From: a virus
Lineage: Duplodnaviria > Heunggongvirae > Uroviricota > Caudoviricetes
Length of the DNA stretch: 15,933 bases
Virus record (IMG/VR): IMGVR_UViG_2667527666_000007
Reading direction: 5' to 3' (one strand)
Shown here piece after piece: positions 1 through 14,352 of the stretch. The stretch's first letter is position 1. Each line of letters begins with the position of its first letter. The position numbers and the translations under genes are program-made. The notes under the pieces are model-generated. The model was not told the DNA's origin. It ran no database searches and saw nothing but the letters and a program-made list of their open reading frames with translations.

Positions 1-1230
1 ATGAGCAGAGCACTTAACAAACTGAGCGATACACAGCTGAGGAAAATCAACGGCACACCTGCCCAAAAAACAGCCTTTCTTAATGACGGTGGAAACCTGA
101 GCGTCAGGCATTCAACCAGTGGCCTTTTAACCTGGTATTTCACTTACAGGGCCGGAACGGGAAGGGGGGCACCACCGGAACGCATTAAGCTGGGAAATTA
201 TCCTGATCTGAGCCTGAAATCAGCCAGGGAAAAAGCCGCCCAGTGTCGCGCATGGCTGGCAGAGGGGAAAAATCCACGTCATGAGCTTAATTACACCGTA
301 CAGGAAGCGTTAAAGCCGGTAACGGTTGGCGATGCGCTCACCTACTGGCTTGAGTCGTACGCAAAGGAAAACCGCGTGGATTATGCCGCCCTGAAAAAGC
401 GCCTTAATAATCACGTAATACAGCACATTGGTGCTATGCCGCTGGATAAATGCGAGCTACGGCACTGGCTGGCCTGTTTTGACCAGGTGGCAAAGCGAAC
501 GCCTGTTACTGCCGGATTCTTGCTACAGACGTGCAAACAGGCGCTTAAGTTCTGCCGGAGGCGGCGCTATGCAATCAGCAACGTTCTTGATGATATGAGT
601 GTGGCGGACGTTGGGAAAAAACCGGATATAAGCGAGCGTGTCTTAAGCACCAAAGAACTGGGCGAATTATTGCAGGCACTGGACAAAAAAATATTCTCCC
701 CCTATTACATCGCGTTAATCCGCCTCCTGATTGTGTTCGGATGCCGGACGGTAGAACTGAGGTTATCGGAGATCAGCGAGTGGGATTTTACCGAAATGCT
801 CTGGACCGTGCCGAAAGAACACAGCAAAACGAAGGTGGCAATATTCCGGCCCATACCGGAAGCAATACTGCCGTTCGTCACGCAGCTGGTGGAGCAGAAC
901 AGGCACACGGGCTTATTGCTGGGGGAAGTGAAACAGGAAACAAGCGTGTCGCAGTACGGCAGATTAGCGCACAGGAGGCTAAATCACCCTCACTGGTCAC
1001 TACATGACATCCGGCGCACCTTTACAACGATGCTGAGCGATTTAGGCGTGGATCCTCACGTCGTGGAGCAGCTTACAGGCCACCAGATGCCAGGAATGCA
1101 GCGAGTTTATAATCATTCCCGTTATCTGGATGCTAAACGCAATGCGCTGGATATGTGGATGGAGCGGTTAGGGATACTGGCGGGAACACATGAAAACGTA
1201 ACCGCACTACCAGCAGCCAGAAGAAAATAA
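1..1230 (+). CDS. int: Tyrosine recombinase / integrase, P4 family (409 aa)
   Basis: ORF 1..1230. N-terminus (LSDTQLRK...LNDGGNLSVRH...LTWYFTYR) resembles the arm-binding domain of P4-type integrases; C-terminus has the catalytic signature HDIRRTFTT...LTGHQ...VYNHSRY (His-x-x-Arg, His, Tyr nucleophile). Start ATG at position 1, upstream context not visible. Confidence 0.9.
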   Translation: MSRALNKLSDTQLRKINGTPAQKTAFLNDGGNLSVRHSTSGLLTWYFTYRAGTGRGAPPERIKLGNYPDLSLKSAREKAAQCRAWLAEGKNPRHELNYTVQEALKPVTVGDALTYWLESYAKENRVDYAALKKRLNNHVIQHIGAMPLDKCELRHWLACFDQVAKRTPVTAGFLLQTCKQALKFCRRRRYAISNVLDDMSVADVGKKPDISERVLSTKELGELLQALDKKIFSPYYIALIRLLIVFGCRTVELRLSEISEWDFTEMLWTVPKEHSKTKVAIFRPIPEAILPFVTQLVEQNRHTGLLLGEVKQETSVSQYGRLAHRRLNHPHWSLHDIRRTFTTMLSDLGVDPHVVEQLTGHQMPGMQRVYNHSRYLDAKRNALDMWMERLGILAGTHENVTALPAARRK

Positions 1231-1293
1231 TTTTTTTCGTGTTTTTTCAGTATGCGCATACTGGATAAGCACACAGATACAACGGCGAACAAT

Positions 1294-1322
1294 GTGAAAC
1301 AACGTGGAACAACCACGAACAA
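1294..1322 (-). promoter_or_regulatory. Copy A of the three-decamer element (reverse orientation), between int and alpA
   Basis: Plus strand GTGAAACAA-CGTGGAACAA-CCACGAACAA; reverse complement TTGTTCGTGG-TTGTTCCACG-TTGTTTCAC. Confidence 0.5.
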
Positions 1323-1595
1323 GAGGCGAAAAAGTACACAGGTTTATAAGTGACTGATTTTATTTGTGTGACTGTTTTTTTATACATTAGCGAATAACGC
1401 TTTAACGCGTGAGAAAAAAGGCATGAAACAATATTTTATGCCTTTGTATTAACATGAATTTAAAAGATTTTATTCTTACTGTTTCATTTTCTGTAAATCA
1501 TACATCCTCAATATTTGCCATTCATCACTCTAGCGGGAACAATACGACACAATAAGACACCTGATGACTCTTTAAGAAACGAAAGGGGGGCAATA

Positions 1596-1784
1596 GTGTT
1601 AAGCACTGATCGGTTTATACGTGAAAAAGAATGCGAAAAACTAACCGGCCTTAGCCGTACGTGTCGCTACCGCCTGGAAAAGGCCGGACAATTCCCATCA
1701 CGTCGTAAACTTGGCGGTCGTTCCGTTGGCTGGTCTTTATCCGAGGTTCTGGCCTGGAAGGATAGCTGCAAGGCAGTTCATTAA
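1596..1784 (+). CDS. alpA: AlpA/Vis-family (excisionase-like, MerR-type HTH) DNA-binding regulator, about 62 aa
   Basis: ORF track gives 1515..1784 from a TTG; the in-frame GTG at 1596 is preceded by a strong RBS (AAAGGGGGG, 1581-1590) and gives an AlpA-sized product. Motif RFIREKECEKLTGLSRTCRYRLEKAGQFPSRRKLGGRSVGW is typical of the AlpA family. Position immediately after int is canonical. Confidence 0.75.
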   Translation: MLSTDRFIREKECEKLTGLSRTCRYRLEKAGQFPSRRKLGGRSVGWSLSEVLAWKDSCKAVH

Positions 1785-1930
1785 TCACGCTGGCGGTACG
1801 CAGCCGCCACACATCAATCATCTGAACACAGAGCTATAACCATGAAGATTGAATATACGCCAGAACGTAGGCGGGGATTCGTTCGCCCTGGTGAAACTGA
1901 AAAACAACAAAATTGGGGTTTTTCAGGCAT

Positions 1931-1962
1931 AAAAAAAGCGGCCCCGAAATGGAGCCGCCTTT
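1931..1962 (-). terminator. Rho-independent terminator for the leftward small-gene operon (hairpin 1938-1960 followed on the minus strand by a T-run)
   Basis: Plus strand aaaaaaaGCGGCCCCGAAATGGAGCCGCc; on the minus strand a GC-rich stem is followed by TTTTTTT. Lies about 70 bp downstream of the minus-strand ORF ending at 2033. Confidence 0.5.
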
Positions 1963-13402: not shown

Positions 13403-13415
13403 TGAGGTCAGCAGC

Positions 13416-13697
13416 ATGACAGAAGCCGAAATAACGGGATTAATCCGCCGCGTTGCCGGAATCAGCCAGCAGGCTGACGAACAGGCCACGCAGCCGGACA
13501 GCGTGACAGCCGAAAACTATGCGCGTGTTGTTGCTGAGGTGATGCGCCGTGATGGTATAGAACTTAATGGCGTGGATATGCGCAACATACGAACCAGAGT
13601 TCTTGAGTTGCTGGCCTACCGTCGCCGCGTGGAGATGTATCGGGAGAAGGAGAAAATAACGTACCACTGGAAGAAGCCGGAGCGGTTGCGGCGGTAA
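13416..13697 (+). CDS. Hypothetical protein (93 aa) downstream of terL
   Basis: ORF 13416..13697 with GAGG about 8 nt upstream. No recognisable motif. Occupies the post-terminase position where satellites often carry accessory genes. Confidence 0.45.
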   Translation: MTEAEITGLIRRVAGISQQADEQATQPDSVTAENYARVVAEVMRRDGIELNGVDMRNIRTRVLELLAYRRRVEMYREKEKITYHWKKPERLRR

Positions 13698-13990
13698 CTG
13701 GTTGATATTCCCGACGGCCCAAAAATGGGTGGCTACATCCCTCGCTTCTGAGGACTGTTAACAAGCTGCCTGAAAGACAGTCACAAACTACGAAATTTTC
13801 GCAGTTTAACTAATGGTCAGCTTAATCGCTAACCCGCTGATATTTTCGGAAACCTCAATTTGAGGAAGTCGTCGCGGTAACTCGCTGAACTTTAAGCAAA
13901 GCGCAAAATTGCGCTTGCTGAATAATCATTATGATTACGCAGATGATTAAGGAATGACCGAAGGCGGAAATTCGCCTGTGGTTAATGGGG

Positions 13991-14156
13991 GAGTTGCAGA
14001 TCTGCAACTCGACCATGAAACTACGGAAACTACCCGTAGTTTGGGTAGTAAGAGTAACACCCAGATTTTGGGGCTTACTCGTGATACCCAAATTTGGGGT
14101 ATCGGTGGCAACCATAACGACTTTCGTTACGGTTGATGCTTTTACCCCATTGGGGG
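13991..14156. other. Dense cluster of palindromes and overlapping hairpins (non-coding): 20-bp perfect palindrome GAGTTGCAGATCTGCAACTC plus several ACCC-AT-tract-GGGT type quasi-palindromes
   Basis: 13991-14010 perfect palindrome; 14020-14040 ACTACGG-N7-CCGTAGT; overlapping 14030-14048 CTACCC-N7-GGGTAG; 14052-14080 GAGTAA...TTACTC; 14083-14103 GATACCCAAATTTGGGGTATC; 14145-14156 CCCCATTGGGGG. ORFs the track places here have no RBS or coherent composition. Confidence 0.5.
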
Positions 14157-14333
14157 AAAGGTATTACGATAATCATAACACCTACCGAACAGGTAAAGCC
14201 CACCAGCCTGATTAACGTTTAACCGGAAAAAAATCCAGGTAGGTGGAGATCCCCATATCGACAGCAACGCCCCTCATGAATTGGCGTGCTTCCCCCTGGA
14301 AAGATGACCCGCCTGTATATTTCTTGTGTCTAT

Positions 14334-14352
14334 TTGTTCCACGTTGTTTCAT
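14334..14352 (+). promoter_or_regulatory. Copy C of the decamer element (TTGTTCCACG-TTGTTTCAT), near the right end of the element, 120 bp from the phoQ stop
   Basis: 18-bp core identical to the reverse complement of 1296-1313; preceded by a degenerate third unit CTTGTGTCTA. Confidence 0.45.

What the first reader, a model, noticed from the sequence alone, without database searches (positions are those of the whole stretch)
1..14352. Tail-less satellite with its own HK97-type head and cos packaging machinery, inserted next to phoQ
The window holds an integrase, an AlpA regulator, a primase-helicase with ori, and a complete head/packaging set (capsid with delta domain, protease, portal, two connectors, HNH, TerS, TerL), but no tail, baseplate, tail-fibre, holin or endolysin genes. 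That combination defines the described capsid-forming PICI class, which builds its own small capsid and borrows only tails from a helper phage. The element is probably a member of that class rather than a new system; it is of interest because of its site at the 3' end of phoQ and its cargo (PerC-like regulator, RHH module).
Basis: partly seen in the sequence, partly recalled or inferred. Interest (0 to 1): 0.7.

Follow-up and report, generated by a model that had tools for sequence, protein, structure and literature searches.

The report
Known capsid-forming phage satellite beside phoQ
This is an about 14.6 kb E. coli phage satellite that makes its own small capsid and packaging enzymes and borrows only tails from a helper phage; it is a close mosaic variant of the published prototype EcCIEDL933 at the same chromosomal site, so it is real but ordinary.

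Summary
The window carries, on one strand:
- a P4-type integrase and AlpA;
- an Icd-like gene and a DUF4222 gene;
- a P4-alpha-type replication protein followed by 10 iterons;
- SSB and PerC;
- then capsid, protease, portal, head closure, adaptor, HNH, TerS and TerL.

All hit HK97-type families with decisive E-values. There are no tail or lysis genes.

The right end is not 14352. attR (GGGCATATTT) lies at 14465-14474 and overlaps the phoQ stop codon. attL lies outside the window, about 181 bp left of int and next to roxA in every relative examined.

The interpretation as a capsid-forming PICI is supported, and the element is not new. The published prototype EcCIEDL933 (also called OI-51, CP-933C or Sp7) sits at the same roxA|phoQ site. 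It shares 97.4% nucleotide identity over the 8.2 kb from SSB to TerL. Its solved T=4 capsid protein (PDB 9GYI) is 383/385 identical to the window's.

The differences from the prototype are a swapped replication protein with its own ori, a divergent RgdR-family allele, and a variable right arm. The PerC cargo is the known PchE. The RHH is a weakly supported minus-strand gene in a regulatory region.

The only possibly new item is an unannotated, hairpin-rich non-coding element at 13962-14125. It shows covariation and also occurs in classical PICIs.

The parts
1..1230 (+). P4-type tyrosine integrase with an N-terminal arm-binding domain
   Evidence: Pfam Arm-DNA-bind_3 5.8e-18 and Phage_integrase 1.9e-16; phrog_1 integrase 7e-73. 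It is 99.0% identical to the EcCIEDL933 integrase. The identical protein lies next to roxA in 6 of 6 public places shown.
1596..1784 (+). AlpA regulator/excisionase-like protein, the master activator in Gram-negative PICIs (the ORF is open from TTG 1515)
   Evidence: Pfam Phage_AlpA 1.5e-16. It is 100% identical to EcCIEDL933 AlpA. AlpA is required for induction and transfer of EcCIEDL933.
2033..2221 (-). Small basic protein (57-62 aa) conserved among islands, downstream of the RHH-like gene
   Evidence: The ORF is identical, or differs by 1 aa, in 5 islands. The same protein is annotated as hypothetical in L006 and in CFT073. No family hit.
2264..2437 (-). RHH-like (YlcI/YnfO-like) small DNA-binding protein; weak support
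   Evidence: Pfam Arc E=0.038 and NCBIfam YlcI_YnfO_N E=0.0014, both below their cut-offs. AlphaFold2 on the single sequence gives two helices, 18-31 and 34-51, with pLDDT 68. Relatives carry an annotated YlcI/YnfO gene at the same place and strand. Sigma-70-like divergent promoters lie at 2431-2459(+) and 2505-2478(-).
2568..2765 (+). Icd-like (host cell division inhibitor-like) protein
   Evidence: NCBIfam phage_ICD_like 5.8e-18. It is 100% identical to the EDL933 copy.
2758..3078 (+). Hypothetical protein (phrog_15327), part of the swapped replication block
   Evidence: PHROGs 9e-70, function unknown. It is absent from EDL933 and 94-97% identical in L001, L002 and L004.
3085..3384 (+). DUF4222 protein, a distant allele of the RgdR family
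   Evidence: Pfam DUF4222 7.6e-17. The EDL933 protein at this position is the 99-aa RgdR (ECs1581), with RGD at residues 20-22. The window allele is only 29% identical and has P-G-A at 20-22.
3381..5198 (+). P4-alpha-type replication protein: SF3 helicase plus a C-terminal origin-binding domain. No separate primase catalytic domain was detected.
   Evidence: Pfam D5_N, DUF5906 and Pox_D5; phrog_864 DNA primase 1e-192. PDB 1KA8, a P4-specific primase C-terminal domain, matches at 1e-24 over residues 497-593.
5207..5444 (.). Replication origin: 10 iterons of ACTGTTCACC / GGTGAACAGT in both orientations
   Evidence: 11 matches in the window, 10 of them here, against 0.72 expected; none of 200 shuffles reached that number. 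EDL933 carries different iterons (TAACCCGCA) next to its different replication protein.
5486..5731 (+). Hypothetical protein (phrog_1231)
   Evidence: PHROGs 2e-49.
5728..6138 (+). Single-strand DNA-binding protein
   Evidence: Pfam SSB 4.2e-17. It is 100% identical to the EDL933 copy.
6149..6421 (+). PerC-family regulator (PchE allele)
   Evidence: Pfam PerC 7.5e-45. It is 98.9% identical to the EDL933 copy, which the literature names PchE on OI-51.
6546..6770 (+). Hypothetical protein (phrog_1957), followed by a terminator-like hairpin at 6781-6798
7062..8219 (+). HK97-fold major capsid protein with an N-terminal delta (scaffolding) domain of about 92 residues
   Evidence: Pfam Phage_capsid 1.7e-61; TIGR01554 major_cap_HK97 6.4e-88. 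It is 383/385 identical to PDB 9GYI, the EcCIEDL933 T=4 capsid. The cleavage motif STGVPAD lies at residues 93-99.
8259..8831 (+). Prohead serine protease (S78, HK97 family)
   Evidence: Pfam 6.2e-48; phrog_80.
8833..10044 (+). Portal protein
   Evidence: Pfam Phage_portal 1e-90; phrog_12. Hits to solved HK97-family portals.
10041..10379 (+). Head closure / head completion protein (one of the two 'connectors')
   Evidence: Pfam Phage_HCP 9e-23; phrog_25 head closure Hc1. It is 94.6% identical to the EDL933 copy.
10376..10672 (+). gp6-like head-tail adaptor
   Evidence: Pfam Phage_connect_1 8e-12; phrog_40 head-tail adaptor Ad1. It is 100% identical to the EDL933 copy.
10672..11112 (+). HNH endonuclease, the terminase accessory of HK97-type cos packaging
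   Evidence: Pfam HNH 1.2e-08; phrog_144 9e-45. It is 100% identical to the EDL933 copy.
11096..11278 (+). Small hypothetical protein (phrog_3173) inside the packaging module
   Evidence: PHROGs 2.9e-36. Annotated in all relatives.
11279..11400 (.). G+C-rich non-coding gap upstream of terS: the presumed cos site (inferred, not mapped)
   Evidence: Sequence. The position matches HK97-type genomes, where cos lies between HNH and terS (own knowledge). Cohesive ends were shown for a cf-PICI, but the site was not mapped there.
11401..11757 (+). Small terminase (P27 family)
   Evidence: Pfam Terminase_4 4.1e-24.
11741..13402 (+). Large terminase (ATPase plus nuclease)
   Evidence: Pfam TerL_nuclease 8.7e-50 and TerL_ATPase 3.4e-25.
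13416..13697 (+). Hypothetical 93-aa protein (phrog_1561), the last gene of both classical and capsid-forming E. coli PICIs
   Evidence: It occupies the same position in L006, L007 and CFT073.
13962..14125 (+). Unannotated hairpin-rich non-coding element (conserved core 13986-14108)
   Evidence: MFE -83.7 kcal/mol with z=-9.7 on the plus strand; z=-9.1 on the minus strand. No Rfam match. Found in 719 of 5426 E. coli genomes and never annotated. Covariation is shown.
14367..14390 (.). Two tandem arm-type integrase sites (GGTGTAGTCAAT GGTGTAGTTAAT) in the P' arm
   Evidence: The same pair lies just upstream of int in relatives. The repeats differ (GGTGTAGTCAC) in the tqsA lineage, whose integrase differs mainly in the N-terminal arm-binding domain.
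14465..14474 (.). attR core GGGCATATTT, overlapping the phoQ stop codon
   Evidence: Comparison with the empty K-12 site and with attL of relatives.
14473..15933 (-). phoQ (host flank, intact; not part of the island)
   Evidence: 100% identical to PhoQ of JNEC-KY177; annotation.

Best explanation
The window holds an integrated capsid-forming phage-inducible chromosomal island (cf-PICI) of the EcCIEDL933 lineage. It lies in the 75-bp gap between phoQ and roxA in E. coli.

Likely life cycle, by analogy with the near-identical prototype (inferred, not shown here):
1. A helper siphophage, once induced, switches on alpA.
2. AlpA with the integrase excises the island by recombination between the GGRCATATTT cores. 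The integrase is positioned by the GGTGTAGTYAAT arm repeats.
3. The P4-alpha-type replication protein binds the ACTGTTCACC iterons at 5211-5435 and replicates the circle, helped by the island's SSB.
4. The capsid protein uses its own delta domain as scaffold. With the protease and portal it builds small T=4 procapsids.
5. HNH, TerS and TerL cut at a cos site, presumably at 11279-11400, and fill the capsids with one island genome of about 14.6 kb.
6. The head closure and adaptor proteins finish a neck that accepts ready-made helper tails, most likely HK106-type.

Shown here: gene content, order, intactness, att sites, iterons, and near-identity to the tested prototype.
For: - Family hits for every module.
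- No tail or lysis families.
- Nucleotide identity to EcCIEDL933 in EDL933: 97.4% over window 5546-13709 and 92.8% over 1-2761.
- Per-protein identity to EcCIEDL933: 94.6-100% for the head and packaging proteins from capsid to TerL, and 99.0-100% for integrase, AlpA, Icd-like and SSB.
- The capsid is 383/385 identical to PDB 9GYI, the EcCIEDL933 T=4 capsid.
- EcCIEDL933 lies at the same roxA|phoQ site.
- att cores were defined against the empty K-12 site.
- Iterons are far above chance.
- Published experiments on EcCIEDL933: AlpA-dependent induction by HK106 and HK446; every packaging gene needed for transfer; only helper tail genes needed; small capsids. Adaptor and connector set tail specificity.
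- 78 complete E. coli genomes carry at least 80% of the window.
Against: - Nothing here shows that this particular copy is mobile. Induction, excision, packaging and the helper are inferred from the prototype.
- The replication protein and ori are not those of the tested prototype. Replication of this mosaic is therefore untested, although the same module occurs intact in many islands.
- No primase catalytic domain was detected in the replication protein.
- The cos site is not mapped.
- attL and the left flank lie outside the window and are known only from relatives.
Confidence: 0.93

Rival explanations
1. A cryptic, decaying P4-like prophage remnant that is no longer mobile. This is how OI-51/CP-933C was first annotated. 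On this reading the head genes are leftovers, and only regulators such as PchE and the RgdR-like protein matter to the host.
For: [quoted passage not shown] This copy has a 21-bp deletion in a conserved stretch downstream of alpA. Its mobility is untested.
Against: All 8 head and packaging genes are full length and 94.6-100% identical to copies shown by knock-out and complementation to be required for transfer. Integrase, AlpA, iterons, arm sites and both att cores are intact. The same module set occurs at several att sites in 78 complete genomes, as expected of a mobile element.
Confidence: 0.04
2. A classical PICI or a P4-like satellite that remodels and uses helper-encoded capsids and terminase rather than its own.
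For: The left half (int, alpA, Icd-like, DUF4222, P4-alpha-type replication protein, SSB, PerC) is shared with the classical PICI EcCICFT073 at the same site. The iteron contains the P4 type I repeat TGTTCACC (own knowledge).
Against: The island encodes its own capsid, protease, portal, connectors, HNH, TerS and TerL. It has no Rpp-type HTH, no decoration protein and no lambda-type cosN; the only 12-mer within 2 mismatches of GGGCGGCGACCT lies inside phoQ. No P4 sid, psu or delta homologues turned up in the Pfam or PHROGs scans.
Confidence: 0.02
3. One end of an ordinary HK97-like prophage whose tail and lysis genes lie outside the window.
For: The window is cut exactly at the integrase start, so its own left flank is unseen.
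Against: The right end is a clean attR at phoQ, directly after TerL and one small gene. In 3 close relatives, and in 6 of 6 contigs with the identical integrase, roxA lies about 250 bp left of int. The distance from attL to attR is about 14.5-15.5 kb in relatives.
Confidence: 0.01

Closest known systems
EcCIEDL933 (= O-island 51 / CP-933C in EDL933, Sp7 in Sakai), the prototype capsid-forming PICI
   Same: - Same att site between roxA (ycfD) and phoQ.
- Same gene order.
- Integrase 99.0% identical, AlpA 100%, Icd-like 100%, SSB 100%, PerC/PchE 98.9%.
- Capsid 99.5%, protease 98.9%, portal 99.3%, adaptor 100%, HNH 100%, TerS 99.2%, TerL 98.2%.
- Same arm-type repeats.
   Different: - The replication block (window about 2761-5546) is replaced. 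The window has a 605-aa D5_N/Pox_D5 protein with ACTGTTCACC iterons; EDL933 has a 710-aa DUF927 protein with TAACCCGCA iterons.
- The DUF4222/RgdR allele is only 29% identical and lacks the RGD motif.
- The RHH-like gene is 46% identical.
- Head closure protein 94.6% and orf93 87% identical.
- The right arm differs: the window has the structured element 13962-14125, which EDL933 lacks.
- The island is about 14.6 kb, against 15.4 kb.
cf-PICIs inserted in tqsA (ydgG), e.g. in O157:H7 PV15-279 and O111 strains
   Same: 97.4% nucleotide identity over window 2495-14446. This includes the replication block, the packaging module and the structured right arm.
   Different: The integrase is only 90.5% identical. 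About half of the substitutions (21 of 39) fall in the first 84 of 409 residues, which Pfam assigns to the arm-binding domain. The arm repeats are GGTGTAGTCAC, and the core and insertion site differ.
EcCICFT073, the prototype classical Gram-negative PICI
   Same: Same roxA|phoQ site. Same left half: int, alpA, minus-strand small protein plus YlcI/YnfO, Icd-like, DUF4222, primase-family replication protein, SSB, PerC. Same last gene, the 93-aa protein.
   Different: It has lambda-type cos sites, a capsid-like protein, a decoration protein and an Rpp protein. It depends on the helper's capsid and terminase. It has no protease, portal, connectors, HNH or TerL.
Bacteriophage HK97 head and packaging module
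   Same: HK97-fold capsid with a delta domain and protease-dependent maturation. S78 protease, portal, gp6-like adaptor, and HNH with P27-type TerS and TerL for cos packaging.
   Different: - Low sequence identity to phage proteins.
- T=4 rather than T=7 capsid, and no covalent crosslink.
- Gene order is capsid-protease-portal.
- No tail or lysis genes.
Satellite phage P4
   Same: P4-type integrase, AlpA (P4 ORF88-like), Icd-like gene, and an alpha-type replication protein with a P4-like origin-binding domain (PDB 1KA8, 1e-24). The iterons contain TGTTCACC (own knowledge).
   Different: No Sid, Psu or Delta proteins. It does not use helper capsid proteins, and it has its own terminase.

Membership tests
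Capsid-forming PICI (cf-PICI) | Size of about 10-18 kb (criterion i in He et al. 2025) | tested here: met
   attR lies at 14465-14474. attL lies 181 bp left of int in relatives. That gives about 14.65 kb. The left end is inferred from relatives.
Capsid-forming PICI (cf-PICI) | Integrase plus a regulation module (AlpA) and a replication module | tested here: met
   Pfam and PHROGs hits; iterons.
Capsid-forming PICI (cf-PICI) | [quoted passage not shown] | tested here: met
   All eight genes are present and intact in that order at 7062-13402.
Capsid-forming PICI (cf-PICI) | No lysis genes and no complete tail module | tested here: met
   No such family hit in any ORF. The island is bounded by attR at phoQ, and by roxA in relatives.
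Capsid-forming PICI (cf-PICI) | AlpA-dependent induction by a helper phage; small capsids made of island proteins; transfer that needs only helper tails | not testable with these tools
   Shown experimentally for EcCIEDL933. Inferred here from 94.6-100% protein identity.
HK97-type head and cos packaging | HK97-fold capsid with a delta domain, S78 protease, HK97-family portal, and HNH with P27-type TerS and TerL | tested here: met
   TIGR01554 6.4e-88; Pfam hits; 383/385 identity to the solved HK97-fold capsid 9GYI.
HK97-type head and cos packaging | A cos site with cohesive ends | not tested
   Only a candidate G+C-rich gap at 11279-11400. Cohesive ends are reported for a cf-PICI.
Classical Gram-negative PICI (EcCICFT073 type) | Relies on helper capsid and terminase; carries Rpp and lambda-like cosN | tested here: not met
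   It has its own TerS and TerL. There is no lambda cosN in the island and no Rpp-type HTH gene.
P4-like satellite | Sid/Psu/Delta capsid-size and transactivation genes, and helper (P2) cos | tested here: not met
   None of these appeared in the Pfam or PHROGs scans. Only the int, alpA, icd and alpha-type replication functions are shared.
RgdR family (ECs1581) regulators | 99-aa DUF4222 protein upstream of the replication gene; an RGD motif at residues 20-22 is needed for LEE activation | tested here: inconclusive
   The window has a 99-aa DUF4222 protein at the right position. It is only 29% identical to RgdR and has P-G-A in place of R-G-D.

The most novel reading that the evidence does not exclude
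The island itself is known. The most novel reading still open concerns the unannotated, about 125-165 nt hairpin-rich segment in its right arm (13962-14125, core 13986-14108). It may be a functional structured RNA, or a single-stranded-DNA signal, that many E. coli PICIs share, both classical and capsid-forming. Possible roles are a satellite regulatory RNA, a 3'-end stabiliser, or a priming signal.

It folds far better than shuffled sequence. Its first hairpin keeps pairing through at least 5 different stem sequences. Single-base changes keep G-U pairs on the plus strand. It has no Rfam family and no annotation in 719 genomes.
Probability: 0.3. Interest if true: 0.45.

Novelty: already known. 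Interest (0 to 1): 0.15.

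Why it matters
For genome annotation, it matters that such regions are labelled as cf-PICIs rather than 'cryptic prophages'. These elements are mobile. They can spread between species by joining their tail-less capsids to foreign phage tails. The EDL933 copy also carries host regulators, PchE and RgdR, that affect type III secretion, motility and colonisation.

This copy adds three modest points:
- Modules are exchanged between lineages. The replication protein moves together with its own iterons, and the integrase arm-binding domain changes together with its arm sites.
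- The RgdR-type slot can hold a very divergent allele.
- The right arm carries a conserved structured element that nobody has annotated.

None of this changes what is known about how cf-PICIs work.

Tried and rejected
- tRNA scan: none found, so the att site is not a tRNA gene.
- Rfam over the whole window at gathering scores, and over the right arm at E up to 5: nothing credible.
- PADLOC on ten small or unknown proteins: no defence-system hit. The expected 'immune cargo' of cf-PICI accessory regions is not evident here.
- Right-arm element as the cos site: rejected. Lambda-type cosN in the classical PICIs lies elsewhere, upstream of the 93-aa gene. The window has no cosN-like 12-mer outside phoQ.
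- The 307-aa ORF 1842-2765 as a real protein: doubtful.
  - It has no family hit except in its last 60 residues, which are Icd-like.
  - The variable sites show no third-codon bias: 8, 5 and 6 at positions 1, 2 and 3.
  - Relatives annotate it as a pseudogene, or annotate the antisense genes instead.
- Genome-collection scan with the 93-aa protein, meant to gather diverse right arms: only one locus came back. I used an exact 16-mer scan of viral contigs instead.
- PDB search with the RHH-like ORF: only AmrZ at E=0.47. The RHH call stays weak.
- I did not run the large protein-database searches, because the identification was already decisive.

Full report
**What is in the window**

The window is E. 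coli DNA. All 5426 complete E. coli genomes match its phoQ end, and 78 carry at least 80% of it. No tRNA gene is present.

One strand carries a dense gene array. Pfam, NCBIfam and PHROGs identify it without ambiguity:
- integrase, 1-1230, with Arm-DNA-bind_3 and a catalytic domain;
- AlpA, 1596-1784;
- an Icd-like protein, 2568-2765;
- a DUF4222 protein, 3085-3384;
- a D5_N/DUF5906/Pox_D5 replication protein, 3381-5198;
- SSB, 5728-6138;
- PerC, 6149-6421;
- HK97-family major capsid, 7062-8219;
- S78 prohead protease, 8259-8831;
- portal, 8833-10044;
- head closure protein, 10041-10379;
- gp6-like adaptor, 10376-10672;
- HNH, 10672-11112;
- P27-type TerS, 11401-11757;
- TerL, 11741-13402;
- a 93-aa protein, 13416-13697.

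phoQ lies on the other strand at 14473-15933. No ORF hits a tail, baseplate, fibre, holin or endolysin family. The unassigned ORFs are all at most 106 aa.

**Boundaries**

I compared the window with the empty K-12 site. There, roxA and phoQ are separated by 75 bp. I also compared it with occupied sites in three relatives.
- The attB core is GGGCATATTT.
- attR lies at window 14465-14474 and overlaps the last two bases of the phoQ stop codon. phoQ is left intact.
- attL (GGACATATTT) lies 181 bp left of the integrase ATG in EDL933, JNEC-KY177 and F3113. It is therefore outside the window.
- In those genomes roxA starts about 250 bp from int, and no phage genes intervene.
- The identical integrase protein is very common. 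In 6 of 6 public contigs shown it is again preceded by potA, pepT and roxA.
- The island is thus about 14.65 kb.
- Two tandem arm-type repeats (GGTGTAGTCAAT GGTGTAGTTAAT, 14367-14390) match a pair just upstream of int in relatives.

**How it most likely works**

The replication protein ends in a P4-alpha-type origin-binding domain. PDB 1KA8 matches it at 1e-24. Directly downstream are 10 copies of GGTGAACAGT/ACTGTTCACC in both orientations at 5211-5435. Only 0.72 such matches are expected in the whole window. This is a replication protein with its own origin. No primase catalytic domain was detected, so 'primase' rests on family naming only.

The capsid protein has no separate scaffold gene. 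It carries the HK97-like maturation motif STGVPAD at residues 93-99. This fits a delta domain of about 92 residues that the S78 protease removes.

HNH with P27-type TerS and TerL is the HK97-type cos machinery. The G+C-rich gap at 11279-11400 is the likely cos site, by position only.

The rest of the cycle is inferred from the prototype. That covers helper-triggered alpA expression, excision, T=4 capsids and acquisition of helper tails.

**Comparison with what is known**

The cf-PICI class was defined on EcCIEDL933, a 15.4 kb element of E. coli EDL933. It has int, alpA and rep, plus capsid, protease, portal, connectors, HNH, TerS and TerL, and no tail genes. The published experiments show:
- AlpA is needed for induction by HK106 and HK446.
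- Every packaging gene is needed for transfer.
- Only helper tail genes are needed from the phage.
- The capsid is T=4, and its structure is PDB 9GYI.
- The adaptor and connector proteins set which tails are accepted.

In the EDL933 chromosome this element lies exactly between roxA and phoQ. It is the same region long known as O-island 51, CP-933C or Sp7.

How the window compares with it:
- The window matches it at 97.4% over 5546-13709 and at 92.8% over 1-2761.
- Protein identities are integrase 99.0%, AlpA 100%, SSB 100%, PerC 98.9%, capsid 99.5%, protease 98.9%, portal 99.3%, head closure 94.6%, adaptor 100%, HNH 100%, TerS 99.2% and TerL 98.2%.
- The window's capsid is 383/385 identical to chain 9GYI_B.
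- All sequence criteria used to call cf-PICIs are met.

The element is a variant of the prototype itself, at the prototype's own site. The classical PICI EcCICFT073 uses the same site too. The location next to phoQ is therefore not a new feature.

**What differs from the prototype**

Replication block. The block at about 2761-5546 is replaced. EDL933 has a DUF927 protein with TAACCCGCA iterons. The window has the P4-alpha-type protein with ACTGTTCACC iterons. That same block is 97-98% identical in islands inserted in tqsA. Replication protein and origin thus move as one unit.

Integrase lineages. The tqsA islands have an integrase only 90.5% identical. About half of the changes (21 of 39) fall in the first 84 of 409 residues, which Pfam assigns to the arm-binding domain. 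Their arm repeats are different as well, GGTGTAGTCAC. This is a tidy case of a protein and its DNA site changing together.

DUF4222 protein. The DUF4222 protein of EDL933 is the published LEE/T3S regulator RgdR (ECs1581, 99 aa, RGD at residues 20-22). The window's 99-aa DUF4222 protein is only 29% identical and reads P-G-A at those positions. Its regulatory activity cannot be assumed.

PerC. The PerC gene is the PchE allele.

**The 'RHH module'**

The 307-aa plus-strand ORF 1842-2765 is probably not a single gene:
- Only its last 65 codons have a family, which is Icd-like at 5.8e-18.
- Its variable sites show no third-position bias.
- Relatives annotate pseudogenes there, or annotate the antisense genes.

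Two ORFs lie antisense to it:
- A 57-aa ORF at 2264-2437 has weak Arc and YlcI/YnfO similarity, with E=0.038 and 0.0014, both below their cut-offs. AlphaFold2 gives a two-helix model of modest confidence.
- A conserved basic 57-62 aa ORF lies at 2033-2221. It is annotated as a hypothetical protein in other PICIs.

Divergent sigma-70-like promoters sit between the RHH-like gene and the Icd-like gene. In one classical PICI the gene after the YlcI/YnfO gene is an abortive-infection protein, so this slot may carry cargo. The RHH call is plausible but weak.

**Noticed in passing: a structured non-coding element**

Between the 93-aa gene and the P' arm, window 13962-14125 folds into four hairpins. 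The plus strand gives -83.7 kcal/mol with z=-9.7. The minus strand gives z=-9.1.
- It has no Rfam match and no annotation.
- Its core, 13986-14108, occurs in 719 of 5426 complete E. coli genomes, with up to 6 places per genome.
- It occupies the same relative position in classical PICIs at other att sites.
- It is missing from the EDL933 and CFT073 islands.

I gathered 38 distinct copies from viral contigs and genomes.
- The first hairpin keeps a 5-7 bp stem around an A-rich tetraloop in 14 of 17 sequence variants.
- The second to fourth pairs from the loop each show 3-4 different Watson-Crick pair types.
- In the core helices, single changes give G-U on the plus strand in 41 sequence-pair cells. 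Changes that would suit only the minus strand give A-C in 4 cells, all from one divergent lineage.

It is not the cos site. This looks like a functional plus-strand RNA or single-stranded-DNA structure. Its function, and whether it has been described before, remain open. My counts come from alignments I anchored myself and from folding each sequence separately, which favours finding pairs.

**Verdict**

The finding is real and correctly interpreted, but already known. It is a mosaic copy of the prototype cf-PICI at the prototype's att site. Interest is low. The one item that might repay work is the unannotated structured element in the right arm.

Noticed in passing
window 13962-14125 (core 13986-14108): An unannotated hairpin-rich non-coding element (z=-9.7 on the plus strand) with no Rfam match. 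It occurs in 719 of 5426 E. coli genomes, at the same place in classical and capsid-forming PICIs. It is absent from the EDL933 and CFT073 islands. The first hairpin covaries, and G-U pairs favour the plus strand. It is not the cos site.
   Followed up: partly
L015:4577/5011, L035:1000/1436, L056:9607/10041, L088:1000/1434: In four viral contigs the structured core occurs twice, 434-436 bp apart. This suggests tandem right-arm remnants or a duplicated cassette.
   Followed up: no
window 3085-3384: The DUF4222 protein sits where EcCIEDL933 encodes RgdR (ECs1581), a published activator of LEE/type III secretion. The window allele is only 29% identical and has P-G-A instead of the functionally important R-G-D at residues 20-22.
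   Followed up: partly
window 1842-2765 and its antisense strand (2033-2221, 2264-2437): The 307-aa plus-strand ORF is probably spurious apart from its Icd-like tail. Antisense to it lie an RHH-like (YlcI/YnfO-like) gene and a conserved basic 57-62 aa gene, with divergent promoter-like sites at 2431-2505. In another PICI (L007) the gene after the RHH gene is an abortive-infection protein, so this may be a cargo slot.
   Followed up: partly
window 1842-2275: This stretch downstream of alpA is almost invariant among five islands that otherwise differ. It is more conserved than the neighbouring coding sequence. The window alone has a 21-bp deletion in it, after position 2031.
   Followed up: no
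window 14367-14390 and integrase residues 1-84; L004:7960-7990 and 22580-22610: The arm-type repeats (GGTGTAGTYAAT here, GGTGTAGTCAC in tqsA-inserted islands) change together with the integrase N-terminal arm-binding domain. The rest of the integrase stays more than 90% identical. The core sites also differ between the two lineages.
   Followed up: partly
window 2761-5546; L005:23133-26607: The replication protein and its iterons are exchanged as one block between cf-PICI lineages: ACTGTTCACC here, TAACCCGCA in EDL933. Contigs with the identical integrase carry a third replication type, AAA_25 (L126-L131).
   Followed up: partly
window 14465-14475: The att core overlaps the phoQ stop codon, and the island separates phoQ from roxA by about 14.6 kb. 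In K-12 roxA follows phoQ on the same strand after 75 bp. Whether roxA expression changes was not examined.
   Followed up: no
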